A stretch of DNA of 64,000 nucleotides from assembly GCA_963699165.1 (NCBI GenBank), contig OY969413.1, forward strand, positions 340,562 to 404,561, in the 5' to 3' direction. Source of the stretch: Candidatus Kaiserbacteria bacterium (GTDB lineage: Bacteria; Patescibacteriota; Minisyncoccia; Phycocordibacterales; Phycocordibacteraceae). The notes under the pieces are model-generated. The model saw only the letters and a list, made by a program, of their open reading frames with translations, searched no databases and was not told the DNA's origin. This document shows positions 1,391-52,060 of the stretch, piece by piece (positions within the stretch are counted from its first letter, which is position 1; each line of letters opens with the position of its first letter). Made by a program: the position numbers and the translations under genes.

Positions 1391-2451
1391 GGCACCCAAA
1401 CCCCTCAATTCGAACGACGGTTTTTTGCGCTCCTCTGAGCGCGTTGTTTCTTTTCCGCAGCATACGCCTCATCTGGCGTGAGTGAACCGAGCACATCCAT
1501 GAAGCGGCGATTCATCTTTGCTTCGAGTTTCTGCACAAATCTTTTTGAATACTTTGAAATATCCGAGCTTTTCGGGATGTACCGCCGCAAGTCCTTGTTC
1601 AGATTCTCGATTGATGGCTTCTCCCATGGCGCATGCACATGACAGAAATATATCTTCACCCCAAGCACCTTCTCTAGCCGTTTGTGTTCGAGAAAGAGAA
1701 TATCGTTGTCGAATGTGATGGTCTGCATCTCGGGATACCGCTTTTTCATTCTGCGAAGCGCTCGCTCCACGTTTCGCACTGACACTGGCAGGATCCGCTC
1801 CAGCAGGTTTTTGCGCACCCTGCGATCCCGCAGACCAAGAATGATGCCTTGACCGCTCTTGCCCGACACGATGAAGTCGCCCTCCATGTGACCCAATCCC
1901 CATCGCTTGTTGATTTTGCTCGGTCGTTTGTCGATCAGGCGCTTGTCGGCAATGTGTGGTTTCGATGGCCGAGAGCGTCGCCTCTTCTTGAATACCTTTG
2001 CTCGATGCGACTCGATCCGTCTGCCATACGGGCTCTTGATATATCGGCGTATAGCCGAGGATGAAGCATATCCGATATCCTTCTCGATCCGCTTCAATCG
2101 AAGTGAGATGTTTTCGGGCGACTGATCGTCGAAGAGATGCGCCTCGATGAACTTCCGGAGCTTCGGGTCGAGAGCAATCATCTTGCCGACCGCTCGGCTG
2201 TGTTTCCTTCGTACGTATGAAATGTGATGCGCATATGCAGCATCATACGGCCGTCCCTTCCTCTTCTTTTGCGTCTCGTACCATATGACACTCTTCGGTC
2301 GGTCGAGTGCATCTCCGACATCGTGCAAAGAGTATCCCTTCGCTAACAGTATCTGTATTTCGTCTCGTTCGGACCTTGTGAAGTGCGCACCGCCGGAGGT
2401 TTTTTCATTCGCTCAATGTATCAAACGTTCGAATTCAAAAGACTAGTCGCC
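1391..2451 (-). mobile_element. IS30-family insertion sequence, copy 1 (1061 bp) with 3-bp target-site duplication 'ctg'.
   Basis: Near-identical to copy at 23509-24569. Imperfect terminal inverted repeats sharing aattcgaacg. ctg at 1388-1390 and 2452-2454. Confidence 0.8.
1405..2328 (-). CDS. IS30-family transposase
   Basis: 307-aa ORF, basic, with a DDE-type integrase core. Almost identical to the ORF at 23523-24446. Confidence 0.8.
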   Translation of the reverse strand: MHDVGDALDRPKSVIWYETQKKRKGRPYDAAYAHHISYVRRKHSRAVGKMIALDPKLRKFIEAHLFDDQSPENISLRLKRIEKDIGYASSSAIRRYIKSPYGRRIESHRAKVFKKRRRSRPSKPHIADKRLIDKRPSKINKRWGLGHMEGDFIVSGKSGQGIILGLRDRRVRKNLLERILPVSVRNVERALRRMKKRYPEMQTITFDNDILFLEHKRLEKVLGVKIYFCHVHAPWEKPSIENLNKDLRRYIPKSSDISKYSKRFVQKLEAKMNRRFMDVLGSLTPDEAYAAEKKQRAQRSAKNRRSN

Positions 2452-2818: not shown

Positions 2819-5455
2819 TCATCGCTTTTTATATGGGCGACGCAACGCCTTCTGCAAATATTCGCCCGTATACGAACCCTTTGTGTCCGCAACTTCTTCC
2901 GGAGTGCCTTTCGCGACTATTTTTCCGCCACCCGCGCCGCCCTCGGGACCGAAGTCGATGACGTAATCAGAACATTTAATGAGGTCGAGATTGTGTTCGA
3001 TGACGACGACCGTGTTTCCGCGCGCAACAAGCTCCTGCAAAATCTCAATGAGCTTGCGCACGTCTTCGTAGTGAAGGCCGACGGTCGGCTCGTCGAGAAG
3101 ATAGATCGTTTTCGCCGTCATCTTTCGATAGAGCTCGCTTGCGATTTTCACGCGCTGGGCTTCCCCGCCGGAAAGCGTCGTCGCGCTCTGCCCGAGCGTG
3201 AGGTATTCGAGGCCGGTCGCATTCAAACTCATAAGCCGATCTGAAATAGCGGGAATGTCGCTAAAAAACTTTTCGGCCTCTTCAACCGTCATCTGAAGCA
3301 CATCGTAAATACTTTTCCCGCGATAGGTGATTTCGAGCGTCTCTTTCATAAAGCGCTTGCCTTCGCAGATGTCGCAGGTCACGTACACGGTCGGCAGGAA
3401 GTGCATTTCGACGGCGATTGAGCCGTTGCCCTGGCACGCTTCACAGCGTCCTCCCGGCACGTTGAAAGAAAATCGTCCCGGTTTCCAGCCGCGTGCGCGC
3501 GCCTCGGCCGTTGCGGCGAAAAGGTCTCGGATCGGCAGAAATGCGCCCGTATACGTCGCCGGATTGCTCCGCGGCGTGCGGCCGATTGGCGACTGGTCGA
3601 TGAGGACGGCGCGCCCGATGTATTCGGTGCCGGTGAGGGACGAAACGTGCTCGAGTTTGGATTCGCGGCGAGCGGAGCGAGCCGCGATATTGCGATGCAG
3701 AATGTCGTACAAAAAAGTCGACTTCCCGCTTCCCGACACGCCGGTGATGCACACGAGCTTTCCGAGCGGCACGTCGATGTTTTGATTCTTCAGGTTGTGG
3801 AGCGTTGCTCCGCGAACTTTTATCCAGCCCTTTTCGCTTTCCCGGCGCTTTTCGGGAATCGCGATTTCTTTTTCTCCGCGCAAATATGAAAGCGTGAGCG
3901 AATTGCTTTCATTCGTTTTCGCGGTCAGAAGGTCGTCGAGCCAGCCGGATGCAACCACCTTTCCGCCGTGCACGCCCGCGCCCGGCCCAATGTCGACGAT
4001 GTAATCGGACGAGTAAATCGTATCCTCGTCGTGCTCAACCACGATGATGGTATTACCGAGCTCTTTCAGAATCAAAAGCGTTTTAATGAGGCGGTCATTG
4101 TCGCGCTGATGCAGGCCGATTGTCGGCTCGTCGAGAACGTACAGCGCGCCCGTGAGTCCGCTGCCGAGCTGCGATGCAAGGCGAATACGCTGCGATTCCC
4201 CGCCGGAAAGCGTCGCTGCAGACCGATTGAGCGTCAGATAATCGAGACCGACGTTTAACATGAATGAAAGGCGGCTGTCGATTTCTTTCAAAATAGGCGC
4301 TGCGATGTCGATTTTCATTTCTGAAAGTTCGATGGTGTCGACAAAGTCCTTTGCTTCTTTAATCGACATGTTCGTAAAATCGACAATGCTCTTACCCAAT
4401 GTTTTATCTTTTTTACTTTTCAGAAACACTCGAAGAGCTTCGGGTCGGAGACGTTTGCCCTCACAAACGGGACACGGCGCTTCGGAGAAGAGCGATTCCG
4501 TGCCGAGACCATGGCACTCGGGACACGCGCCGTAGGGCGAATTGAATGAAAATAAACGCGGCTCGACTTCGGGAAAGGAAGCGCCGTCTTCCGGACAGAT
4601 AAATTTTGATGAAAGCGTTTCGACCGAACCGTCGGCATGCTGAATTTTCACCAAGCCGTCCGCCTGTTTGAGTGCAAGTTCGAGCGCTTCCGAAAGCCGC
4701 TCTCGCGCCGCCTGCGTCGAACGCGCAAATTCAGACACGTAAATCGAATCGACGACGGCATCGATGCTGTGCCGTTTATTTCGGTCGAGCACGATTTTCT
4801 CGCGAAGCGATTGCTGTTTGCCGTCAATAACGACTTTTTCATACCCCTTGCCGAGCAGGTCGTACAACAATTGATAGTATTCGCCCTTTCGGCCGACGAC
4901 GACGGGCGCGAAAATAGTTACTGCGCTTTTATCCACGGCAACACCGAGCACACTGGTACTCGTGCCGGCGCGTTTCGCCTCGACGCGCGCAAATACCATT
5001 TTTATCATTTCTTCTTTCGAGAGCCGCACAATCGGCACGTCATGATGTATGCAGTACGGCTGGCCGGCGCGCGCGTACAGCACGCGGAGATAGTCGTAAA
5101 TTTCAGTTACGGTCGCGACCGTAGAGCGCGGATTATTTGAACGGCTTTTTTGATCTATGGATATGGCCGGCGAAAGACCGACGATTTCGTCAACATCGGG
5201 CTTCGCCATCTGATTGAGAAATTGCCGCGCATATGCGGAAAGCGATTCGACATACCGGCGCTGGCCTTCCGCGAAAATAGTATCAAAGGCAAGCGATGAC
5301 TTCCCGCTTCCGGAAAGCCCTGTGATGACGGTCATAGCGCCACGAGGCATCTCAACGGAAATGTTTTTCAGGTTGTGCGTGCGCGCCCCTTTGACCGCGA
5401 GCCAGTCGCTCCCGTGCTTGTGCGCATGTTCCTCTTTTGAGGTTTGTTTTTTCAT
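2819..5455 (-). CDS. uvrA: Excinuclease ABC subunit A.
   Basis: Two ABC ATPase modules with Walker [13 protein letters not shown] and [10 protein letters not shown]. Zn-finger CxxC pairs and LSGGE signatures. Start taken at MKKQTSKEE (ATG at 5455); ORF extends further upstream to 5542. Confidence 0.9.
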
Positions 5456-23508: not shown

Positions 23509-24569
23509 GGCACCCAAACCCCTCAATTCGAACGACGGTTTTTTGCGCTCCTCTGAGCGCGTTGTTTCTTTTCCGCAGCATACGCCTCATCTGGCGTGAG
23601 TGAACCGAGCACATCCATGAAGCGGCGATTCATCTTTGCTTCGAGTTTCTGCACAAATCTTTTTGAATACTTTGAAATATCCGAGCTTTTCGGGATGTAC
23701 CGCCGCAAGTCCTTGTTCAGATTCTCGATTGATGGCTTCTCCCATGGCGCATGCACATGACAGAAATATATCTTCACCCCAAGCACCTTCTCTAGCCGTT
23801 TGTGTTCGAGAAAGAGAATATCGTTGTCGAATGTGATGGTCTGCATCTCGGGATACCGCTTTTTCATTCTGCGAAGCGCTCGCTCCACGTTTCGCACTGA
23901 CACTGGCAGGATCCGCTCCAGCAGGTTTTTGCGCACCCTGCGATCCCGCAGACCAAGAATGATGCCTTGACCGCTCTTGCCCGACACGATGAAGTCGCCC
24001 TCCATGTGACCCAATCCCCATCGCTTGTTGATTTTGCTCGGTCGTTTGTCGATCAGGCGCTTGTCGGCAATGTGTGGTTTCGATGGCCGAGAGCGTCGCC
24101 TCTTCTTGAATAACTTTGCTCGATGCGACTCGATCCGTCTGCCATACGGGCTCTTGATATATCGGCGTATAGCCGAGGATGAAGCATATCCGATATCCTT
24201 CTCGATCCGCTTCAATCGAAGTGAGATGTTTTCGGGCGACTGATCGTCGAAGAGATGCGCCTCGATGAACTTCCGGAGCTTCGGGTCGAGAGCAATCATC
24301 TTGCCGACCGCTCGGCTGTATTTCCTTCGTACGTATGAAATGTGATGCGCATATGCAGCATCATACGGCCGTCCCTTCCTCTTCTTTTGCGTCTCGTACC
24401 ATATGACACTCTTCGGTCGGTCGAGTGCATCTCCGACATCTTGCAAAGAGTATCCCTTCGCTAACAGTATCTGTATTTCGTCTCGTTCGGACCTTGTGAA
24501 GTGCGCACCGCCGGAGGTTTTTTCATTCGCTCAATGTATCAAACGTTCGAATTCAAAAGACTAGTCGCC
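23509..24569 (-). mobile_element. IS30-family insertion sequence, copy 2 (1061 bp), with no flanking target-site duplication.
   Basis: Collinear with copy 1 over the full 1061 bp with only a few substitutions. Flanks are cac / gag. Confidence 0.8.
23523..24446 (-). CDS. IS30-family transposase, copy 2.
   Basis: Differs from copy 1 by about three residues. Confidence 0.8.
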   Translation of the reverse strand: MQDVGDALDRPKSVIWYETQKKRKGRPYDAAYAHHISYVRRKYSRAVGKMIALDPKLRKFIEAHLFDDQSPENISLRLKRIEKDIGYASSSAIRRYIKSPYGRRIESHRAKLFKKRRRSRPSKPHIADKRLIDKRPSKINKRWGLGHMEGDFIVSGKSGQGIILGLRDRRVRKNLLERILPVSVRNVERALRRMKKRYPEMQTITFDNDILFLEHKRLEKVLGVKIYFCHVHAPWEKPSIENLNKDLRRYIPKSSDISKYSKRFVQKLEAKMNRRFMDVLGSLTPDEAYAAEKKQRAQRSAKNRRSN

Positions 24570-26719: not shown

Positions 26720-26990
26720 GAGTTTATTGTATCGCTTTCACCCGCCTTGTAAACGACGTGTCTCGTGCGGGATAACCCACCTCAAACTGGCTGGGAGACA
26801 AGGACCGCGATTACGCTTATCGCTCCTTACAGGAGCAGTACACCTTAGGGAACGTCGTCGGTTTTACTTGGATAAAGCAAAACCGACGCGAATTCAAGCA
26901 AAAGAAAAGCTGCCCGTGCGGACAGCTTTTCTTGCAGTAATTCATCGTCGAAATCTGCTGATTTCGACGCGATTTTTACGCTTAAAAATC

Positions 26991-42143: not shown

Positions 42144-43805
42144 CTACTGAGTTCTCAAGATTTGAATAACCTCCTCAAGTGAAGAACCTTGCCGTGACCT
42201 GATCAATGAGAGAATATCTTCTCGGGCAAATCCCGCAACGTGCATGTCATCAGCCGCTCGTATGGCTTCTCCAAATAGCGGGCCGGGCTTAAATCCTAAC
42301 GCGATAAGATCCCTTCCAAATAAGACCGGCGCCGGTTTGTTTTCATAAATGCCAAGTTCGGCGGCTTTTTGCAACAGCCACTTGCCGGCAGGATAGTCTA
42401 TTGGCATGAATGACTTTTCTGGTTCGTCTGGATCAACGAAAGGTCCGCGACCGCGATGATCTGCTTCAGCAACGCAGACCAAATGTCTGAGTGTTGCAGG
42501 ACTGATTCTTGTTGCCAATCGTTTAATCGCCCCATCGCTAATCCGTATCCCTCCGTGCACCTCCTCAAGATAAAATATGGTAGGCCGTAAATGCTCGACT
42601 ACTACATGTGCAATCGGAATGCGCAACGAGGCCTCAATGCCGATTTCGTGGAGAAACCGTAACGCTGGCTCAGCGCCGGCTTCTTCGTGACCTATCGATC
42701 TGACGCGGCCGTCTGTTTCTTCCGTGGTCAGCGGCTTACCAAAATCATGACAAAATGCTCCCAGCATGACAAGAAGTGCGTCGTCTCCTTTCAACTGTTC
42801 TCGTTCAATAATTTTAGCCGCCTCATCTACAACCATTAGCGTGTGCATCCATACATCGCCTTCGGGATGCCATTCCGGCTCTTGGGGTGTATTTTGCAAT
42901 TCAATGAGTTCGGGGTGCATTTCATGAAAAATGCCCCACTCCATTGCCGTTTGGAGGCCGAGCGACGGCTTTCTGGATTTTAGAAATAACTTTATCCATT
43001 CTTCCCGCAAGCGCTCTTTTGGCAAATGCTTTAACTCGCCGCGCATTTCCCGCATAATCCTTGCCGTCGTGTCGTCAACCGTTAGACCAAATCGACCTAC
43101 GAATTGCACGCCGCGCAAAACCCTTAACGGGTCATCTCGAAACCGTTCCTCATCCGTAACCCGTAAAATCCTATGTTGAATATCATGTATACCGCCGAAA
43201 TAATCGTATATTTCTCCGGTCAAGATATCTTTCGCCAAGGAATTCATTGTGAAGTCGCGTCTACGGGCCGCCTCTTTAATGCTCATAGTTGGATCGGCGC
43301 TTATAGAGAAGTCCTTATGTCCTTTGCCGGTTTTTGACTCCCGGCGAGGCAGAGATACGTCGATATCAATATTTCCGATCCTGACTTTTAGAATTCCGAA
43401 CGCGGCTCCAACTTCATTAACATCCCCGAAGGCCTTCGCGAGTTCCCTAAGTTGATCCGGCGCAACGCCGTACACTTCGACATCGAAGTCCTTTGGGGGC
43501 ATGCCGAGCAACTCATCGCGAACGGCCCCTCCAACCAAACAAGCCCTTCCTCCGATTGCTTCAACCGCTTTTGCAAACTCAACGAGCTTTGCGAAAGCGT
43601 CGGCTTCTTCGATGAAGCCGCCATCAAGAAATCGTTCTCTTTCCTTCACCGCATCGGCTCTGTGAAGAATCTTTGCTTCCCAATACTCCGGGGTTTCTTG
43701 CGCGGCATGCAATAGGTGACGGCGCCTCTCCTTCACCGGCTCGGCTTGTATCTCCGCGGCAAGTGCATTGCGATATTTCACGTGTTTTTGATTTTCAATA
43801 CCCAT
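42144..43805 (-). CDS. cca: CCA-adding tRNA nucleotidyltransferase with HD domain.
   Basis: GGAVRDELLG polymerase-beta head and HD motif. Confidence 0.8.
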   Translation of the reverse strand: MGIENQKHVKYRNALAAEIQAEPVKERRRHLLHAAQETPEYWEAKILHRADAVKERERFLDGGFIEEADAFAKLVEFAKAVEAIGGRACLVGGAVRDELLGMPPKDFDVEVYGVAPDQLRELAKAFGDVNEVGAAFGILKVRIGNIDIDVSLPRRESKTGKGHKDFSISADPTMSIKEAARRRDFTMNSLAKDILTGEIYDYFGGIHDIQHRILRVTDEERFRDDPLRVLRGVQFVGRFGLTVDDTTARIMREMRGELKHLPKERLREEWIKLFLKSRKPSLGLQTAMEWGIFHEMHPELIELQNTPQEPEWHPEGDVWMHTLMVVDEAAKIIEREQLKGDDALLVMLGAFCHDFGKPLTTEETDGRVRSIGHEEAGAEPALRFLHEIGIEASLRIPIAHVVVEHLRPTIFYLEEVHGGIRISDGAIKRLATRISPATLRHLVCVAEADHRGRGPFVDPDEPEKSFMPIDYPAGKWLLQKAAELGIYENKPAPVLFGRDLIALGFKPGPLFGEAIRAADDMHVAGFAREDILSLIRSRQGSSLEEVIQILRTQ

Positions 43806-44221: not shown

Positions 44222-44280
44222 CTGCTCCGTCTCGAGATGTGTGTCCCGACTGATGAGCTCGAAAGAGCGAAACGGAATGA
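44222..44280 (+). ncRNA. Candidate type III hammerhead ribozyme.
   Basis: GUC cleavage triplet (44229-44231). Stem I ucgaga/ucccga with loop ugugug. Core CUGAUGA. Stem II gcuc-GAAA-gagc. GAAAC. Stem III ACGGA:UCCGU with the conserved A15.1-U16.1 pair. Confidence 0.5.
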
Positions 44281-44315: not shown

Positions 44316-44397
44316 GCCGGGATGGCGGAATTGGTAGACGCAACGGATTCAAAACCCGTCGACGCAAGTCATGAGAGTTCGATTCTCTCTCCCGGCA
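44316..44397 (+). tRNA. tRNA-Leu (anticodon CAA), class II.
   Basis: GCCGGGA acceptor, D-arm, anticodon loop TTCAAAA, long variable arm, GAGAG-TTCGATT-CTCTC T-arm, TCCCGGC-A. No encoded CCA. Confidence 0.85.
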
Positions 44398-45072
44398 CAA
44401 CAGCGAGCGAAGCGAGGCGTTGTGCCGAGAAGCACGGCATCTGCATGCCGTGCGCGAGAGAATCGAATGGCTCGGCCATGTCCGAGGATCTGCGAGGACG
44501 GCGAGCCGGGGTCGAGAGCGCTTAGCGAATTGCGAATGCCTGGAGCAATCCGCTTAGCGACTCGCGGCCGATTCTCTCTCCCGGCACAACAGCGAGCGAA
44601 GCGAGGCGTTGTGCCGAGAAGCACGGCATCTGCATGCCGTGCGCGAGAGAATCGAATGGCTCGGCCATGTCCGAGGATCTGCGAGGACGGCGAGCCGGGG
44701 TCGAGAGCGCTTAGCGAATTGCGAATGCCTGGAGCAATCCGCTTAGCGACTCGCGGCCGATTCTCTCTCCCGGCACAACAGCGAGCGAAGCGAGGCGTTG
44801 TGCCGAGAAGCACGGCATCTGCATGCCGTGCGCGAGAGAATCGAATGGCTCGGCCATGTCCGAGGATCTGCGAGGACGGCGAGCCGGGGTCGAGAGCGCT
44901 TAGCGAATTGCGAATGCCTGGAGCAATCCGCTTAGCGACTCGCGGCCGATTCTCTCTCCCGGCACAACAGCGAGCGAAGCGATGCGTTGTGCCGAGAAGC
45001 ACGGCATCTGCATGCCGTGCGCGAGAGAATCGAATGGCTCGGCCATGTCCGAGGATCTGCGAGGACGGCGAG
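44381..45072 (+). repeat. Tandem array of a 189-bp unit (3 identical copies plus a 4th variant). Each unit begins with the last 20 nt of tRNA-Leu.
   Basis: Unit starts at 44381, 44570, 44759 and 44948. Each unit contains hairpins ggcacaac..gttgtgcc and gcacggcat-ctgc-atgccgtgc. It also has an inverted copy of the T-arm segment (gagagaatcgaa). Confidence 0.9.
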
Positions 45073-45197
45073 AAGGGCTCCCGGTTTGTCCAAGAGCGAA
45101 GCGATTGGTATCAAACCGCAGTCCTGTGAGGAGCGGAGAGCGCTTAGCGAAATGCGAGTCGCCGAAGGGCGCGACGCATTTCGGTTAACGACTCATA

Positions 45198-47289: not shown

Positions 47290-48305
47290 GGTGAGGTTGA
47301 ATTAGTGAACAGTGTACCTCTATCGCACAAAAGAGCGAGCATTGATTTCTCCTCACCCGCGAATGAAAGACCGCATTCCCGTGCGGTTGACCACGCGCTC
47401 CAATTCCAGCTCGAGTTGTATGTTGCTACTGCCTCGGCAATGTTGTTGCTAGCAATCTCTGCCGCAGCAACGCACTGAGCGTACAAAGATTCATTTATTA
47501 CTCTTGCGCCGTAGTCGGTTCCCGAGAAAGCGCTCGGGCAATTGAGTCCTGCCATGGAATGCACCGTAAGATTAATTTGAAATAGCCCCCATGAGAAAAC
47601 ACGGCCGTCATAACTCATTTTGTCGGTCGCACTCGCCTTGTCAGTCACACCGCCGCTCTCAGCCGTGCAGATTTCCGCAGCTTGAGAAGAAGCGTTCCCA
47701 AATGCGCTGAGGTTTGAAGGGCTGCAAGGACCGGATGTTGGTACGGTACACGAACCCGCTCCGCCTCCGCCGCCAGTTGTCGTGACGGGCGTCGTCGGCG
47801 TACTTCCCGTAATCGAACCCACATAGCCCGAACCTTCTTTGAACTGACCGAGAGAACCTTCTTGAATGAGGCATGGATTAATACCCCCCGACGTAATGAG
47901 TGACGACCAGGTACCCCACGTGGAGTCGCTTGGATGATAGAGCACTGCCATAACGGCATCCACGATGAGCCAACCCGCAAGAGCTACAACAATGCCGATG
48001 ACGATATTGAGCAATATTTTTCTCGCCGTACTTTGCGCGCCCGGATTAAACGGATTGACTACGAGCAGAAAGCCCGCATACGCAATCATGATGGGCGCCA
48101 CGAAGACGACGGCGATGGTGATAAGGAAACTGATGAGGTTATTGATGACGTCGATGACCATGCCCCAGCTTGCGGGGCAGAGATTGATGGCCGAGGGAAT
48201 GATGGGGTCGAAAAACGGTATTGCGGCGTGGGTTGCCGAAGGCAGCGCGAAAGTACCGGCGAGCGCCGAAACGAGAAGGAGTGCGGAGCGAAATCGCATA
48301 TTCAT
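47286..48305 (-). CDS. Membrane-anchored protein with a TrbC/VirB2-pilin-like N-terminal module (signal peptide plus two TM helices) and a C-terminal lytic-transglycosylase-like domain.
   Basis: N-terminal ~175 aa nearly identical to paralog 48927-49862. C-terminus has ESGG...GLFQIN...YNSS, resembling the SLT catalytic motifs. Confidence 0.5.
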   Translation of the reverse strand: MNMRFRSALLLVSALAGTFALPSATHAAIPFFDPIIPSAINLCPASWGMVIDVINNLISFLITIAVVFVAPIMIAYAGFLLVVNPFNPGAQSTARKILLNIVIGIVVALAGWLIVDAVMAVLYHPSDSTWGTWSSLITSGGINPCLIQEGSLGQFKEGSGYVGSITGSTPTTPVTTTGGGGGAGSCTVPTSGPCSPSNLSAFGNASSQAAEICTAESGGVTDKASATDKMSYDGRVFSWGLFQINLTVHSMAGLNCPSAFSGTDYGARVINESLYAQCVAAAEIASNNIAEAVATYNSSWNWSAWSTARECGLSFAGEEKSMLALLCDRGTLFTNSTSP

Positions 48306-48370
48306 ATCATACCGCCGCACGCAGCGAACGGACGCGGCTTTCCCCACCGAACACTCGTCTGCGCGGTGCA

Positions 48371-48926: not shown

Positions 48927-49862
48927 TCAATTACAACCGCACGATGCGCCGACGCTGACGTGCAAGTGGTCTGCCTCGGGACCTTGCCATGTCGAGCCGC
49001 AAGCGGTTGCGGCGCTTTCTATTGCGGCATTTTGCGCTGACGTTCCCCACGCTATGTCCACGGCATACGACTTCCCGACGCAGCTTACTCCCCCGTAATG
49101 GCAAGAGTGAACGGTATGCGCGCAGCCGACCGATTGTCCGCCCACGTCACACTCTTGAAATGTTTTCAAATGCTCCGGTGTAATCACGTGATCGGAAATC
49201 GACGTGACATCGAACCCCGTCTTCGTTCCCATGCATTGGATGAGTTGAGACAGGAGCGGAGAAGCGTCGCCCATTTCCGCTTGCGCATCCGGTTCGTAGG
49301 TAACCGATCCGCCGAGTGTCAATGTCGAGCCGCCCGTTGTAGTCGTTTCAACGGGATTGCTCCCAGAAATCGAGCCCACATACCCATTGCCTTCGTTCAA
49401 CTGATACAGCGAACCGGCCTGTGGCAAGCACGGAGGAATCCCGCCCGACGTAATGAGTGACGACCAGGTACCCCACGTGGAGTCGCTTGGATGATAAAGC
49501 ACTGCCATAACGGCATCCACGATGAGCCAACCCGCAAGAGCTACAACAATGCCGATGACGATATTGAGCAATATTTTTCTCGCCGTACTTTGCGCGCCCG
49601 GATTAAACGGATTGACTACGAGCAGAAAGCCCGCATACGCAATCATGATGGGCGCCACGAAGACGACGGCGATGGTGATAAGGAAACTGATGATGTTATT
49701 GATGACGTCGATGACCATGCCCCAGCTTGCGGGGCAGAGATTGATGGCCGAGGGAATGATGGGGTCGAAAAACGGTATTGCGGCGTGGGTTGCCGAAGGC
49801 AGCGCGAAAGTACCGGCGAGCGCCGAAACGAGAAGGAGTGCGGAGCGAAATCGCATATTCAT
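48927..49862 (-). CDS. Paralog with the same VirB2-like N-terminal module. It has a different, Cys/His-rich C-terminal domain, possibly a zinc D,D-peptidase.
   Basis: N-terminal region ~98% nt-identical to 47880-48340. C-terminus has SISDHVITPEHL...CAHTVHSCH (H-x6-D...H-x-H type). Confidence 0.45.
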   Translation of the reverse strand: MNMRFRSALLLVSALAGTFALPSATHAAIPFFDPIIPSAINLCPASWGMVIDVINNIISFLITIAVVFVAPIMIAYAGFLLVVNPFNPGAQSTARKILLNIVIGIVVALAGWLIVDAVMAVLYHPSDSTWGTWSSLITSGGIPPCLPQAGSLYQLNEGNGYVGSISGSNPVETTTTGGSTLTLGGSVTYEPDAQAEMGDASPLLSQLIQCMGTKTGFDVTSISDHVITPEHLKTFQECDVGGQSVGCAHTVHSCHYGGVSCVGKSYAVDIAWGTSAQNAAIESAATACGSTWQGPEADHLHVSVGASCGCN

Positions 49863-49976
49863 ATCATACCGCCGCACGCAGCGAACGGACGCGGCTTTCC
49901 CCACTGTCGTTCGTCTGATATCTTTTAGTCACGGCGCAACATCCTCCTCATCTTGCGCCTAATTTGGCATCGATTC

Positions 49977-50047
49977 GGGCCTATAGTTTAGAGGTAAAAC
50001 AGTGGTCTCCAAAACCACCGTCCCAGGTTCGAGTCCTGGTGGGCCCG
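49977..50047 (+). tRNA. tRNA-Trp (anticodon CCA).
   Basis: GGGCCTA acceptor, anticodon loop CTCCAAA, T-arm CCAGG-TTCGAGT-CCTGG, TGGGCCC-G. Confidence 0.85.
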
Positions 50048-50093
50048 CAAATCAAAAAACTGCCTTTAGGGCGGTTTTTTGATTTGCGGGCCC
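50041..50093 (+). terminator. Perfect 20-bp inverted repeat including the tRNA-Trp 3' end; likely bidirectional terminator.
   Basis: gggcccgcaaatcaaaaaac ... gttttttgatttgcgggccc. Confidence 0.6.
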
Positions 50094-50228
50094 AAGCACG
50101 CGCGGGGCGCGTGCGTCCAGAACTCGAAAACCTTGCGAGCATATTTTGCGATTTCCTGAAGCAAAATATCCGCAAGGTGTACTGACCCTGTAAGGGCCGA
50201 GAAGCGTAATCGCGGTCCTGGTGTCCCG

Positions 50229-50270
50229 CCAACAAGAAAAACCTGGACTGCTCCAGGTTTTTCTTGTTGG
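50229..50270 (+). terminator. Perfect 19-bp palindromic hairpin with A/T runs (bidirectional terminator-like).
   Basis: ccaacaagaaaaacctgga-ctgc-tccaggtttttcttgttgg. Confidence 0.6.
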
Positions 50271-50425
50271 CGAGTGCGGGAGATCTATCGAGCCAGCGGG
50301 CGACGCATCGTCGTGCTGTCGAGTGCGAGATGGCGAGGCGGGCTCCCGTTTTGTCCACGAGCGAAGCGATTGGTTTACAAACCGCAGTCCTTTAGGAGTC
50401 GCGAAAATTTTCGATCGACCCAAGA

Positions 50426-50470
50426 AGGTGATTCTGCTGAATCACCCAGATAGGTGATTCTGCTGAATCA
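50426..50470 (+). promoter_or_regulatory. Two tandem copies of a 19-bp site containing the palindrome TGATTC-TGCT-GAATCA. Candidate operator pair.
   Basis: aggtgattctgctgaatca at 50426-50444 and again at 50452-50470. Promoter (-35 TTGATA 50507-50512, 17 nt, -10 TATACA 50530-50535) follows. Confidence 0.5.
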
Positions 50471-50912: not shown

Positions 50913-51893
50913 TTACTTGTCCCACACAAAACCGTTCCCGAAATGGCCGTACTTTGACGTCTCGCGAAATTGCGGTTTTCGGAGTTTCAGCAGTTTGATG
51001 ATGGCATGCGGTCGCAAATCGTATCCTTTGATTTCCTCTTGTTTGCCGTCAATCGTAACAACGGCCATAAGCGGCTCGGCAACGCCAATAGCGTAGGCGA
51101 TGTGCGCATACACTTCTTTCGCTTTTCGTTTCTTCAGATAGGCAACCGCGATTTTTCGCGCGATGTATGCCCCGCTTCGGTCCACTTTCGTCGCGTCTTT
51201 TCCGGAAAAACAGCCGCCGCCAAGAGGAACATTTGGGCCGTAGTTATCGACGGCGAGTTTTCTTCCCGTGAGTCCCGTGTCCGCATTGAACCCGCCGACG
51301 AGCCACTCGCCATTCGGATTTTTCAGCCATACTTTCTCAAGCTTCAAACCTTTCGCGAGCAATGGCTCGATTTCTTTTTTGACGACTTTTACAAGCGGCG
51401 AATTTTTACCGTAGTCGGCCTTGCACACCGAAGTCAAAATCGAAATCACGTTGCCGTTATCGACCGTCACTTGCGCTTTGCCGTCGGTTGCTCCCATCGC
51501 CTTGGTGAGTTTCCGCGCAAGCACGACTTCAAGCGGCAAAAGCTCCGGCGTTTCGCTCGTCGCATACCCGACCATAATTCCCTGGTCGCCCGCGCCGTCA
51601 TTATCGACGCCATGCTGGATTTCGGGACTTTGTTCGACGACATTCACCGTAATGCCGATGCCTTCGTTGTAGCCGCACTCTTTGTACACCTGCTCTGCTA
51701 TTTTTCTGATGTTGATGCGCGCCTTCGTCGTAAGCTCGCCGGTAACCGTGATGATGCCGTGGCCGCCGAGCACTTCAATCGCCGAACGCGTATACGGGTC
51801 CTGTGCAAGACATGCGTCGAGAATTGCGTCTGAAATCTGGTCGCACACTTTATCGGGGTGGCCAATTGAAACCGATTCTGCCGTCCTAATCAT
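50913..51893 (-). CDS. metK: S-adenosylmethionine synthetase.
   Basis: GHPDK and GGGCFSGKD motifs; shorter than typical bacterial MetK. Confidence 0.85.
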   Translation of the reverse strand: MIRTAESVSIGHPDKVCDQISDAILDACLAQDPYTRSAIEVLGGHGIITVTGELTTKARINIRKIAEQVYKECGYNEGIGITVNVVEQSPEIQHGVDNDGAGDQGIMVGYATSETPELLPLEVVLARKLTKAMGATDGKAQVTVDNGNVISILTSVCKADYGKNSPLVKVVKKEIEPLLAKGLKLEKVWLKNPNGEWLVGGFNADTGLTGRKLAVDNYGPNVPLGGGCFSGKDATKVDRSGAYIARKIAVAYLKKRKAKEVYAHIAYAIGVAEPLMAVVTIDGKQEEIKGYDLRPHAIIKLLKLRKPQFRETSKYGHFGNGFVWDK

Positions 51894-51919: not shown

Positions 51920-52060
51920 CTCCTTCCGTTTAGGAAAGTGTCTTTATGTAGGAGACATTATCTTTCCCTTTCGGGATTGGATGGAGCACCTTCTTTAATT
52001 TCTTAAAGGGTTGCCGGGAGATTGTCGAGCCAATACTCTACCTCCGCTCTTGATAACGTA
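51920..52060 (-). ncRNA. SAM-I (S-box) riboswitch in the metK leader, with a terminator-like expression platform.
   Basis: Minus strand reads CGUUAUCAAGAGCGGAGGUAGAGUAUUGGCUCGACAAUCUCCCGGCAACC...AAGAAGGUGCUCCAUCCAAUCCCGAAAGGGAAAGAUAAUG. This matches the S-box consensus UUAUCAAGAG.GG.GGAGG.A.UGGCCC.A.GAA.CCCGGCAACC...GGUGC. A hairpin and U-run follow. Confidence 0.85.

What the first reader, a model, noticed from the sequence alone, without database searches (positions are those of the whole stretch)
45073..45134. 62-nt insertion element in the last repeat unit recurs downstream of tRNA-Trp
The fourth repeat unit carries a 62-nt insertion (aagggctcccggtttgtccaagagcgaagcgattggtatcaaaccgcagtcctgtgaggagc) after the motif ggcgag. 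A ~85%-identical copy sits 5.2 kb away at 50339-50398, downstream of tRNA-Trp. That copy is also preceded by ggcgag and by a degenerate fragment of the 189-bp unit (tcgagtgcgagatggcgag vs ggatctgcgaggacggcgag). Both copies keep a stem (cggtttg...caaaccg) with a compensated mismatch. This points to a small structured mobile or RNA element that travels with the tRNA-flank repeat family.
Basis: seen in the sequence. Interest (0 to 1): 0.55.

Follow-up and report, generated by a model that had tools for sequence, protein, structure and literature searches.

The report
Widespread mini hairpin insertion element
The 62-base "insertion" is one copy of a previously uncatalogued ~50-70-base hairpin element whose 21-base tip is identical in hundreds of copies from Patescibacteria to Proteobacteria; it behaves like a miniature mobile element, yet its hairpin is kept by selection.

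Summary
Window 45076-45123 and 50341-50389 are two copies of one hairpin (92% identical over 52 nt; none expected by chance).

- **Two details are wrong.** Copy 2 carries two uncompensated mismatches and no longer folds. Repeat units 1-3 have 8 other bases at the site, so it is not a clean insertion.
- **Family.** A scan of GTDB genomes with the tip GTCCANGAGCGAAGCGATTGG hit its 117-locus limit (about 1 expected). Hits are mostly Patescibacteria, with several copies per genome, plus Alpha-, Beta- and Gammaproteobacteria.
- **Structure.** The stems covary freely around the constant tip (92-95% paired against 24-40% in slid controls).
- **Mobility.** It occurs as a discrete 71-72-nt insertion without target duplication (empty and filled copies of a host repeat). 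It also occurs nested, in inverted pairs and in tandem arrays. Two close relatives lack it at the tRNA-Leu locus.
- **Selection.** It persists with compensatory changes at an orthologous paaB-paaC spacer.
- **Not known.** No match in Rfam, phages, plasmids, E. coli, viral contigs or papers.

Best reading: a REP/PATE-like non-autonomous hairpin element recognised through its tip by an unidentified factor. The tRNA link is a tendency (23% of copies), not a rule. Interest is moderate to high.

The parts
45076..45123 (+). Copy 1, intact hairpin. Basal helix GGCT/AGTC (45076-79 with 45120-23). Internal loop CC / C. Outer stem CGGTTTG/CAAACCG (45082-88 with 45112-18). U89 and a TAT bulge, whose last base is T where the family has A, so the family's U-A pair is not formed here. 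Inner stem CCAA/TTGG, then tandem G.A, then GC/GC with a GAA loop.
   Evidence: Covariance-model hit 45078-45123, 62.8 bits, E 1e-13. The minimum-energy RNA fold equals the family consensus, -23.1 kcal/mol, z -2.5. Helices are supported by covariation in alignments A3 and A5.
45088..45108 (+). Invariant 21-nt tip GTCCAAGAGCGAAGCGATTGG of copy 1.
   Evidence: The exact pattern recurs in at least 117 loci of other genomes. All 21 positions are invariant or nearly so in A3 and A5.
45124..45164 (+). 3' tail of copy 1 (C TGTGAGG AGCGGAG ... GCGAGTCGCC). It corresponds to the tail CAGTCCAGCGGAG...GYGAGTCGYGG of the 69-72-nt form of the element, here with extra bases.
   Evidence: Comparison by eye with the tails listed. 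The part 45138-45159 matches the 189-bp unit at 22 of 23 positions.
50341..50389 (+). Copy 2, a decaying hairpin. The tip reads GTCCACGAGCGAAGCGATTGG (50353-50373). It has a U.C mismatch in the outer stem, a C.U mismatch in the inner stem and a 4-nt bulge. A short tail CTTTAGGAGTCGCG follows, to 50403.
   Evidence: Covariance-model hit 50343-50389, 43.1 bits, with two non-standard pairs marked. It does not adopt the consensus fold, z -0.3.
45058..45075 (+). Shared upstream flank (GAGGACGGCGAG AAG). It matches 50324-50340 (GAGATGGCGAG GCG).
   Evidence: The blastn alignment 45058-45133 against 50324-50398 is 87% identical. Repeat family D4.
44394..44426 (+). Related hairpin with the same 11-nt cap: GGCACAAC-AGC-GAGCGAAGCGA-GGC-GTTGTGCC. 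Its 5' strand overlaps the 3' end of tRNA-Leu. It is repeated in each 189-bp unit, at 44583-44615, 44772-44804 and 44961-44993.
   Evidence: Partial covariance-model hits to model positions 17-27 at 44405, 44594, 44783 and 44972. RNA fold -20.2 kcal/mol, z -4.3.
44380..45072 (+). Tandem array of 189-bp units. Each unit begins with the last 18 nt of tRNA-Leu. Copy 1 abuts its 3' end.
   Evidence: Tandem Repeats Finder: period 189, 3.7 copies, 99% matches. Another assembly of the same strain shows 1.7 copies.
44316..44398 (+). tRNA-Leu(CAA), 678 nt upstream of copy 1.
   Evidence: ARAGORN and Rfam tRNA, 54.5 bits.
49977..50048 (+). tRNA-Trp(CCA), 293 nt upstream of copy 2. A degenerate second copy of its 3' end, carrying CCA, lies at about 50219-50236.
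   Evidence: ARAGORN. Sequence read directly. The same layout occurs beside tRNA-Lys in L073.

Best explanation
The 62 nt are one copy, and 50341-50389 a second, decaying copy, of a miniature non-autonomous hairpin element. The element is about 50 nt as a bare hairpin and 54-72 nt with its tail.

**Anatomy (shown).**
- A short basal helix.
- A 7-9-bp outer stem of free sequence.
- A 2-3-nt bulge.
- The inner stem CCAA/UUGG.
- Two tandem G.A pairs.
- A 2-bp GC stem closed by a GAA loop (variants GUA, GGA, GUAA).

**How it most likely works.**
- The element is copied into intergenic DNA as a discrete unit without target duplication. The site is usually after a G and in front of CTYC. This is shown for some copies.
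- I infer that a trans-acting factor, not yet identified, recognises the invariant tip on one folded strand.
- A single-stranded-DNA route, like that of REP/RAYT or IS200/IS605-derived elements, is the most economical guess. This is inference.
- Copies multiply within a genome with a genome-specific stem. They insert into each other, form inverted pairs and amplify in tandem.
- Once inserted, a copy is co-transcribed with its neighbours. These are tRNAs, ribosomal-protein genes, chaperone genes and others.
- The hairpin can then come under selection, probably as a stable stem-loop in the transcript. This is inference.

**In this window.** Copy 1 lies at the end of a fast-changing stack of tRNA-Leu 3'-flank modules. 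Copy 2 lies in the equivalent tRNA-Trp flank.
For: **Family and abundance**
- At least 117 loci hold the exact tip, against about 1 expected.
- Several copies occur per genome: 7 in Niyogibacteria JACROR01, 5 in Azambacteria JACRAK01 and 5 in Brevundimonas DASYGX01.
- The covariance model finds further, diverged copies, up to 4 in one ribosomal-protein operon.

**Structure**
- The outer stem pairs in 92.5% of cells against 24-40% with slid partners, and 7 of 8 pairs change on both sides.
- The basal helix covaries (C-G 35, U-A 6) and has a conserved G.U in 35 of 43 copies.
- The inner stem covaries in diverged copies: CUAU/AUAG, CUAA/UUAG, UCAA/UUGA, CUGC/GCAG.
- In the inner part I count 7 G.U pairs and no A.C pair from the variants. 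This marks the + strand as the folding strand.

**Discrete insertion**
- The host repeat GGGCTRCG^CTTCCGTTAAGAT is empty in L015 and L042.
- It holds 71-72 nt in L028 and in two places in L101.
- In L036 it holds 129 nt: a second, inverted element nested in the first.
- The same hairpin is a clean 58-nt insert in the T stem of a tRNA-Ile pseudo-copy.

**Other signs of mobility**
- The right end ...GAGTCGYGG is followed by CTYC in 12 of 17 distinct full-length copies.
- Tandem arrays occur in L084, L009, L038, L048 and L061.
- Inverted pairs occur in L044, L054, L036 and L042.
- Many copies sit at contig ends. Two short-read contigs of this strain break exactly at the element.
- Close relatives (peroxiredoxin in the same 90%-identity cluster) have tRNA-Leu(CAA) at the same place without the element.

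**Selection**
- Four Burkholderiaceae genomes keep it between paaB and paaC. The tip is essentially constant (one A-to-G change in L106) and the stem shows compensatory changes, while flanking codons diverge.

**Orientation**
- By crude gene calls, the + strand runs with both flanking genes in 26 cases and against both in 11.
- With nearby tRNAs the count is 22 on the same strand against 7.
Against: - No transposase, integrase, reverse transcriptase or HUH enzyme recurs within about 4 kb of the copies.
- None is encoded in the 64-kb window, which has only DDE-type transposases.
- A search of neighbourhood ORFs with two Y1 transposase sequences found nothing.
- The element is absent from phage, plasmid and viral collections. 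No vehicle for transfer between phyla was seen.
- In REP and IS200/IS605-type elements the conserved part lies in the stem or foot and differs between species. Here the tip is invariant across phyla, which fits a conserved host partner better than a private transposase.
- Retention with compensatory changes at orthologous sites argues for a host function.
- The site in this window is not a clean filled-versus-empty pair.
- The family was collected by its exact tip, so the invariance of the tip is partly built into the sample. Only the model-found diverged copies show which positions may vary.
Confidence: 0.5

Rival explanations
1. It is first of all a host cis-acting RNA. A very stable stem-loop in polycistronic transcripts (tRNA precursors, ribosomal-protein, chaperone and paa operons) has a tip bound by a conserved protein or RNase. 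It would mark processing sites or protect 3' ends. Its spread would come from duplication and occasional transfer, not from a dedicated transposition system.
For: - Orthologous retention with compensatory changes and an essentially constant tip between paaB and paaC in four Burkholderiaceae genomes, and upstream of tRNA-Gln in four Saccharibacteria.
- Conserved G.U pairs that exist only on the + strand.
- Tandem G.A pairs and GNA/GNRA-type loop variants.
- Sense orientation in 26 of 37 flanked cases and with 22 of 29 nearby tRNAs.
- Position right after stop codons of highly expressed genes such as S13, L2, L36, S10, S3, GroES and SSB.
- No associated mobility gene.
Against: - About 30% of copies are antisense to their neighbours. 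Among them are those abutting the start codons of dnaK, groEL, fusA, ftsZ and rpsL.
- Empty and filled sites, nested insertion, tandem arrays and genome-specific uniform stems are signs of mobile DNA.
- Copy 2 in this window is decaying.
- No Rfam family matches.
- The GNA loop closed by C-G is, from my own knowledge (Hirao and Yoshizawa), the hallmark of unusually stable DNA mini-hairpins rather than RNA ones.
- No expression data could be consulted.
Confidence: 0.3
2. It is part of the attachment site of small integrative elements that target tRNA genes. The hairpin would be an arm or core-adjacent binding site for a tyrosine integrase. Its presence beside partial tRNA copies would be an integration scar.
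For: - Hairpins lie directly at junctions of partial tRNA duplications. Examples are the tRNA-Gln 5' fragment (L058, L061, L097, L115), anticodon-loop junctions (L062, L080), T-loop junctions (L100) and the tRNA-Ile pseudo-copy beyond a 169-188-aa cargo ORF.
- The window's Leu, Trp and Gln flanks and L073's Lys flank all have a second tRNA 3' fragment starting in the T loop, preceded by a related ...TCGCGG tail.
- Anticodon and T loops are the classic integrase crossover positions (own knowledge, Williams 2002).
Against: - 97 of 126 copies have no tRNA within 500 nt.
- Many lie in operon spacers with no tRNA fragment.
- No integrase gene is near any copy or anywhere in the window.
- The element inserts on its own into a non-tRNA repeat.
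Confidence: 0.08
3. The functional strand is the opposite one. The reverse complement of the tip reads CGCUCUUGGACAA, which resembles the boxA antitermination signal bound by NusB/NusE.
For: 10 of 13 bases match the E. coli rrn boxA (UGCUCUUUAACAA), and the sequence is close to the Aquifex boxA GGCUCCUUGGCA. Both are recalled from my own knowledge. The inverted copies sit just upstream of dnaK, groEL, fusA, rpsL, rplF and rplQ.
Against: - In the 16S - tRNA-Ile locus L107, the paa operon, most ribosomal-protein spacers and most tRNA flanks, the transcribed strand is the other one.
- G.U pairs exist only on the + strand.
- The resemblance was noticed after the fact.
Confidence: 0.03

Closest known systems
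REP / BIME / REPIN elements mobilised by RAYT (TnpA-REP) transposases
   Same: - Short extragenic hairpins in many copies per genome.
- Uniform within a genome and different between genomes.
- Found singly, as inverted pairs around a short linker, and in clusters.
- Lie in operon spacers, often just after stop codons.
- Break short-read assemblies.
- Cannot encode their own enzyme.
   Different: - There is no GTAG or CGTC tag at the foot.
- The invariant part is the 21-nt tip, and it is the same across phyla. REPs are species-specific and conserved in the stem.
- The hairpin is longer (about 50 nt).
- No RAYT gene was found near any copy.
IS200/IS605-derived miniature elements (PATEs; the cyanobacterial 'Nezha' type), moved as single-stranded DNA by a Y1 HUH transposase
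   Same: - No terminal inverted repeats and no target duplication.
- Strand-specific hairpins near the ends.
- One flank carries a short preferred motif (CTYC) that resembles the element's own opposite end (CTCCC).
- Orientation bias.
   Different: - No TnpA or TnpB was found.
- The target motif is loose.
- The shortest mobile unit (54 nt) has a single large hairpin.
- The cleavage chemistry is untested.
Co-transcribed palindromic mini-elements: Neisseria Correia/NEMIS, enterobacterial ERIC, Rickettsia palindromic elements
   Same: - Small palindromic insertions tolerated in very tight gene spacing.
- They sometimes supply or overlap stop and start codons.
- They are transcribed with neighbouring genes.
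- In known cases they are processed by RNases or alter mRNA stability.
   Different: - Those elements are 100-150 bp.
- They are restricted to one genus or family.
- Correia elements have terminal inverted repeats and TA duplications.
- None has a phylum-spanning invariant loop.
d(GCGAAGC)-type GNA mini-hairpins (phage G4 and phiX174 origins)
   Same: The cap GC-GAA-GC, with loop variants GTA and GGA, is this motif and is flanked by tandem G.A pairs. In DNA it is exceptionally stable (own knowledge).
   Different: That is a structural motif, not a genetic element. No link to replication origins was seen here.

Membership tests
Any Rfam 15 RNA family | A match to a curated covariance model. | tested here: not met
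   No hit overlaps either copy even at E up to 10. Nothing but tRNAs reached gathering score in 18 carrier loci.
REP/REPIN (RAYT-mobilised) | Short imperfect palindrome, extragenic, many copies per genome. | tested here: met
   Hairpin with covariation. Five to seven or more copies per genome in a truncated scan. Where gene ends could be recognised, the copies lie between genes.
REP/REPIN (RAYT-mobilised) | Conserved GTAG (or CGTC) tetranucleotide at one end of the palindrome. | tested here: not met
   The feet of the hairpins read CTCCC..., ATAAG... or CATG.... No GTAG is present. CGTC appears only incidentally in the proteobacterial stems.
REP/REPIN (RAYT-mobilised) | Inverted doublets that form a larger hairpin. 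| tested here: met
   L044 2518(+)/2596(-), L054 3841(+)/3973(-), and L036 and L042 (+ copy, small GC hairpin, inverted variant).
REP/REPIN (RAYT-mobilised) | A RAYT (Y1 transposase) gene in the genome, typically flanked by the repeats. | tested here: inconclusive
Whole genomes were not searchable.
IS200/IS605-type miniature element | Insertion without target-site duplication, next to a short specific motif. | tested here: met
   Empty GGGCTRCG^CTTCCG against the same site filled with 71-72 nt, with no duplication. CTYC follows the right end in 12 of 17 copies.
IS200/IS605-type miniature element | Cleavage and strand transfer by a Y1 HUH transposase on one DNA strand. | not testable with these tools
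   This needs biochemistry or a whole-genome search for the enzyme.
Intrinsic (Rho-independent) terminator | G+C-rich hairpin followed directly by a U tract. | tested here: not met
   No T run follows either copy. The terminator scan lists only a chance sub-hairpin inside copy 2.
Integron attC site | R''/R' boxes RYYYAAC ... GTTRRRY at the base of the hairpin. | tested here: not met
   The bases of the hairpins read GGCTCC...GCAGTCC or TAAG...CTTA.
Integrase attachment site in a tRNA gene | Direct repeat of part of a tRNA bounding the inserted DNA, with an integrase gene inside. | tested here: inconclusive
   Partial tRNA repeats are present beside a minority of copies. No integrase was found. 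Most copies have no tRNA fragment.
Small self-cleaving ribozymes (hammerhead, hairpin, twister, pistol, hatchet) | A match to the family's conserved core. | tested here: not met
   No Rfam hit on the element. The only ribozyme-like hit in the region is a separate hammerhead at 44224-44278.

The most novel reading that the evidence does not exclude
The invariant tip may be the docking site of an undescribed machinery shared by Patescibacteria and Proteobacteria. That machinery could be a new class of enzyme that moves about 50-nt hairpins as single strands. Or it could be a conserved RNA-binding or processing factor that uses the hairpin as a punctuation mark in operons.

A more radical variant is RNA-mediated spread. 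Partial tRNA copies fused to the element's tail start just after T-loop position 58. They carry a CCA that the native genes do not encode, as a reverse transcript of mature tRNA would.
Probability: 0.2. Interest if true: 0.85.

Novelty: new variant of a known kind. Interest (0 to 1): 0.62.

Why it matters
- **Tiny genomes with spreading elements.** Patescibacteria have very small, tightly packed genomes. Here a roughly 50-nt element multiplies in the few bases between essential genes and next to tRNAs.
- **A handle on an unknown partner.** The tip is invariant from these bacteria to Brevundimonas, Burkholderiaceae and Coxiellaceae. That points to a recognition partner nobody has named, and the 21-nt motif gives a precise way to find it by phylogenetic profiling or pull-down.
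- **Practical uses.** The element explains assembly breaks in such genomes. It marks fast-changing tRNA flanks. It is a candidate for a new Rfam or repeat family.

Tried and rejected
- **Rfam.** Searches of both regions at E up to 10 and of 18 carrier loci found nothing on the element.
- **Sequence collections.** blastn against phages, plasmids and E. coli genomes gave only chance-level hits or none. An exact-pattern scan of 2.9 million viral contigs gave 0 hits.
- **Literature.** Full-text search for the sequence gave 0 papers. Searches for repeats or RNA motifs in Patescibacteria found nothing relevant.
- **Neighbour genes.** Clustering 2429 ORFs around the copies gave only housekeeping families. 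Y1 transposase queries gave no hit. A Pfam survey of the 49 largest window ORFs found DDE transposases but no integrase, reverse transcriptase or HUH enzyme.
- **Orthologous locus through the CCA-adding enzyme.** Relatives at 54-75% identity lack the tRNA-Leu neighbourhood, so this was uninformative. The peroxiredoxin cluster worked instead.
- **boxA on the opposite strand.** Rejected on orientation.
- **Kink-turn.** Rejected because the bulge is not next to the G.A pairs (read from the sequence).
- **Hairpin-ribozyme domain A.** The resemblance (CAGUCCUGU, and the stem CUGUUU/AAACAG seen in other copies) is a coincidence, because that stem varies freely.
- **tRNA-like closing stem for the flank modules.** It fits Trp and Leu but not Gln or Lys, so I dropped it.
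- **Strand test on the outer stem.** 11 G.U against 8 A.C pairs, which is uninformative.

Full report
**1. The observation**

tRNA-Leu(CAA) lies at 44316-44398. From its last 18 nt onward the sequence is a tandem array of 189-bp units (44380-45072, 3.7 copies, 99% matches).

The fourth, partial unit follows the consensus up to GGCGAG at 45072. Then come about 62 nt with no counterpart in units 1-3, and similarity resumes at GAGAGCGCTTAGCGAA.

A second copy of those 62 nt lies 290 nt downstream of tRNA-Trp. It is 92% identical over 52 nt and 87% over 77 nt including a shared upstream flank. A 34-nt degenerate pattern finds only these two sites, and 100 shuffles gave none.

Two details of the finding do not hold:
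- Units 1-3 have CCGGGGTC where unit 4 has AAGGGCTC plus 55 nt, so the site is not a clean insertion.
- The two copies do not compensate each other. Copy 2 has a U.C and a C.U mismatch and an extra bulge base. It no longer folds like copy 1 (RNA z -0.3 against -2.5).

**2. It belongs to a very large family**

I scanned one genome per GTDB species for the central 21 nt, GTCCANGAGCGAAGCGATTGG. About one chance match is expected in 596 Gb.

- Most hits are Patescibacteria: Azam-, Niyogi- and Yanofskybacteria, Paceibacterota, Saccharibacteria and Minisyncoccia.
- Single genomes contribute 5-7 copies even in this truncated list.
- There are also hits in Brevundimonas (including a cultured isolate), Caulobacteraceae, Afipia, Rhizobium, Rhizomicrobium, Rickettsiales, Burkholderiaceae and Coxiellaceae.
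- The proteobacterial loci have 60-72% G+C and G+C-rich stems, so they are not mis-binned contigs.
- The window itself comes from a Minisyncoccia genome.

**3. Structure**

Around the constant tip, the flanking bases form a stem whose sequence differs from genome to genome but stays complementary.

- On 38 diverse copies the proposed structure pairs in 92.5% of cells, against 24-40% when partners are slid. Seven of 8 outer-stem pairs change on both sides.
- On 43 copies of the subfamily to which the window copies belong, a basal helix is also supported. One pair reads C-G in 35 copies and U-A in 6. One position is a G.U pair in 35 of 43. RNAalifold predicts the same structure, omitting the outermost basal pair and adding a U-A pair beside the bulge.
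- A covariance model built from the first alignment finds exactly two full copies in the window and about 150 hits in the loci fetched.
- Its weaker hits show what may vary. The inner stem CCAA/UUGG becomes CUAU/AUAG, CUAA/UUAG, UCAA/UUGA or CUGC/GCAG. The loop GAA becomes GUA, GGA or GUAA. The 2-bp stem tolerates G.U or switches to U-A.
- Each 189-bp unit of the window also holds a different hairpin with the same 11-nt cap GAGCGAAGCGA, right after the tRNA-Leu 3' end.

**4. Where the copies sit**

No protein family recurs near them.

- 29 of 126 copies lie within 500 nt of a tRNA, and 22 of those are on the same strand.
- One subfamily starts exactly at the TAA stop codon of highly expressed genes (S13, S3, S10, L2, L36, GroES, SSB). 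A small, genome-specific G+C hairpin follows it.
- A mirror-image subfamily abuts the start codons of dnaK, groEL, fusA, ftsZ, rpsL, rplF and rplQ.
- Ribosomal-protein operons hold up to four copies, often as inverted pairs around the small hairpin.
- By crude gene calls, the folding strand runs with both neighbours in 26 cases and against both in 11.

**5. Evidence that it moves**

- A larger repeat of Azambacteria and relatives exists in an empty form (...GGGCTGCG^CTTCCGTTAAGAT...; L015, L042). It also exists with 71-72 nt inserted at that point (L028, and two places in L101), without target duplication. In L036 a second, inverted element is nested inside the first.
- In three genomes a pseudo-copy of tRNA-Ile carries the hairpin as a clean 58-nt insert inside the T stem.
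- Full-length copies end in ...GAGTCGYGG and are followed by CTYC in 12 of 17 cases. The element itself begins CTCCC.
- Tandem arrays of 54-, 69- and 74-nt units occur.
- Two genomes whose peroxiredoxin falls in the same 90%-identity cluster as the window's have tRNA-Leu(CAA) at the same place, next to that gene.
  - One has a 2-nt spacer and nothing else.
  - The other has a different flank module.
  - Neither has the element, the 189-bp array, the upstream hammerhead or the CCA-adding-enzyme gene.
- Another assembly of the window's own strain has 1.7 instead of 3.7 units. Short-read contigs break exactly at the element.

**6. Evidence that it is kept**

Four Burkholderiaceae genomes carry it at the same spot, with the paaB stop codon inside the stem and paaC downstream.

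- By eye, the flanking codons are only about 80% identical. The tip is unchanged apart from one A-to-G substitution in L106.
- The stem shows G-C to A-U and U-A to C-G compensation.
- One genome has it duplicated in tandem.
- Four Saccharibacteria likewise keep it upstream of tRNA-Gln.

This is not what a purely selfish, decaying insert looks like, although copy 2 of the window is decaying.

**7. The tRNA connection**

The flanks of tRNA-Leu, tRNA-Trp and tRNA-Gln in the window, and of tRNA-Lys in L073, share a layout. The tRNA comes first, then a module of 170-290 nt ending in ...TCGCGG, then a second copy of the tRNA's last 17-18 nt starting in the T loop.

In the Trp and Lys flanks a terminator hairpin, about 70 nt and the element follow.

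Elsewhere the element sits at junctions of duplicated 5' fragments that end in the D arm, anticodon loop or T loop.

- These positions are typical of integrase crossovers, but no integrase is present.
- In four cases the second copy carries CCA although the native gene does not.

I could not decide between an integration scar, a preference of the element for the R^TCC step of T arms, and an RNA-derived copy.

**8. What it is not**

- No Rfam family matches.
- It is absent from phages, plasmids, E. coli and viral contigs and from the searchable literature.
- It lacks the U tract of a terminator, the boxes of attC and the GTAG tag of REPs.
- Its reverse complement resembles boxA, but the transcribed strand is usually the other one.

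**9. Verdict**

This is a small structured element with many copies and strong covariation, and it inserts as a unit.

It resembles REP/REPIN and IS200/IS605-derived mini-elements in behaviour but meets neither definition. Its phylum-spanning invariant tip is unusual.

The most likely mechanism is copy-and-insert of a folded single strand by an unidentified factor that reads the tip, followed by a role as a stable hairpin in transcripts. Which molecule (DNA or RNA) and which partner are involved remains open.

Noticed in passing
window 44224-44278 (+): A type III hammerhead ribozyme-like sequence (CUGAUGA-stem II-GAAAC, GUC cleavage site) lies 38 nt upstream of tRNA-Leu. Rfam RF00008 scores 42.4 bits, below the gathering score of 48.5, at E 1.6e-7. 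The whole upstream segment is missing in two close relatives.
   Followed up: partly
window 44380-45072; L118 1100-2300: The 189-bp array, each unit starting with the last 18 nt of tRNA-Leu, has 3.7 units here but 1.7 in another assembly of the same strain (GCA_049279115.1). This is either real copy-number variation or repeat collapse in assembly.
   Followed up: partly
window 26793-26851 (-) and 50169-50227 (+): tRNA-Gln and tRNA-Trp are each followed, about 190 nt downstream, by the same 59-nt module (85% identical). It ends in a degenerate second copy of that tRNA's own 3' end with CCA. The same module (GCAAAATATCC..AAGGTGTAC...CCCTGTAAGGG) follows tRNA-Lys in another genome (L073).
   Followed up: partly
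window 42144-43805 (-); L144 and L145: The CCA-adding enzyme gene lies between parB and tRNA-Leu only in this strain. Two close relatives have parB directly next to the tRNA-Leu promoter region.
   Followed up: partly
tRNA genes of the fetched Patescibacteria loci and window 44399-44400, 50048-50049: I counted about 30 of 46 well-defined tRNA genes with the two bases CA, not CCA, after the discriminator base (for example ACAA, ACAC, GCAA). About 6% would be expected by chance.
   Followed up: no
window 1391-2451 and 23509-24569: A 1061-bp direct repeat (99.7% identical) encodes a 307-aa ORF with no Pfam match. It looks like an insertion sequence. The first 31 kb of the window also encodes four rve-type DDE transposases and one IS1595-type, which is unusual for a small Patescibacteria genome.
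   Followed up: partly
L004 2345-2911; L107 3447-3956: Between tRNA-Ile and its hairpin-bearing pseudo-copy lies a single cargo ORF (188 and 169 aa) that looks unrelated between the two genomes. These are small islets at a tRNA without any integrase.
   Followed up: no
window 50418-50470: A 26-bp tandem repeat (x2, GGTGATTCTGCTGAATC core) lies just after copy 2 and upstream of a 94-aa ORF with no Pfam match. It could be an operator- or iteron-like site.
   Followed up: no
window 47805-48347 and 49361-49904: Two neighbouring genes without Pfam matches (370 and 325 aa, minus strand) share a 546-nt stretch at 95% identity. This is a recent partial duplication between tRNA-Trp and miaA.
   Followed up: no
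window 51955-52059 (-): A SAM riboswitch (RF00162, 57.4 bits) lies upstream of metK (50913-51893). This is ordinary.
   Followed up: no
L073 about 4900-5010 (-): One copy has its 5' half-hairpin repeated three times and its 3' half repeated twice (GCTCCCGTTTTGTCCAAGAAC x3 ... GAAGCGATTGGCTAACAAAACGCAGTAC x2). It looks as if the hairpin had been extended by slippage or by abortive copying.
   Followed up: no
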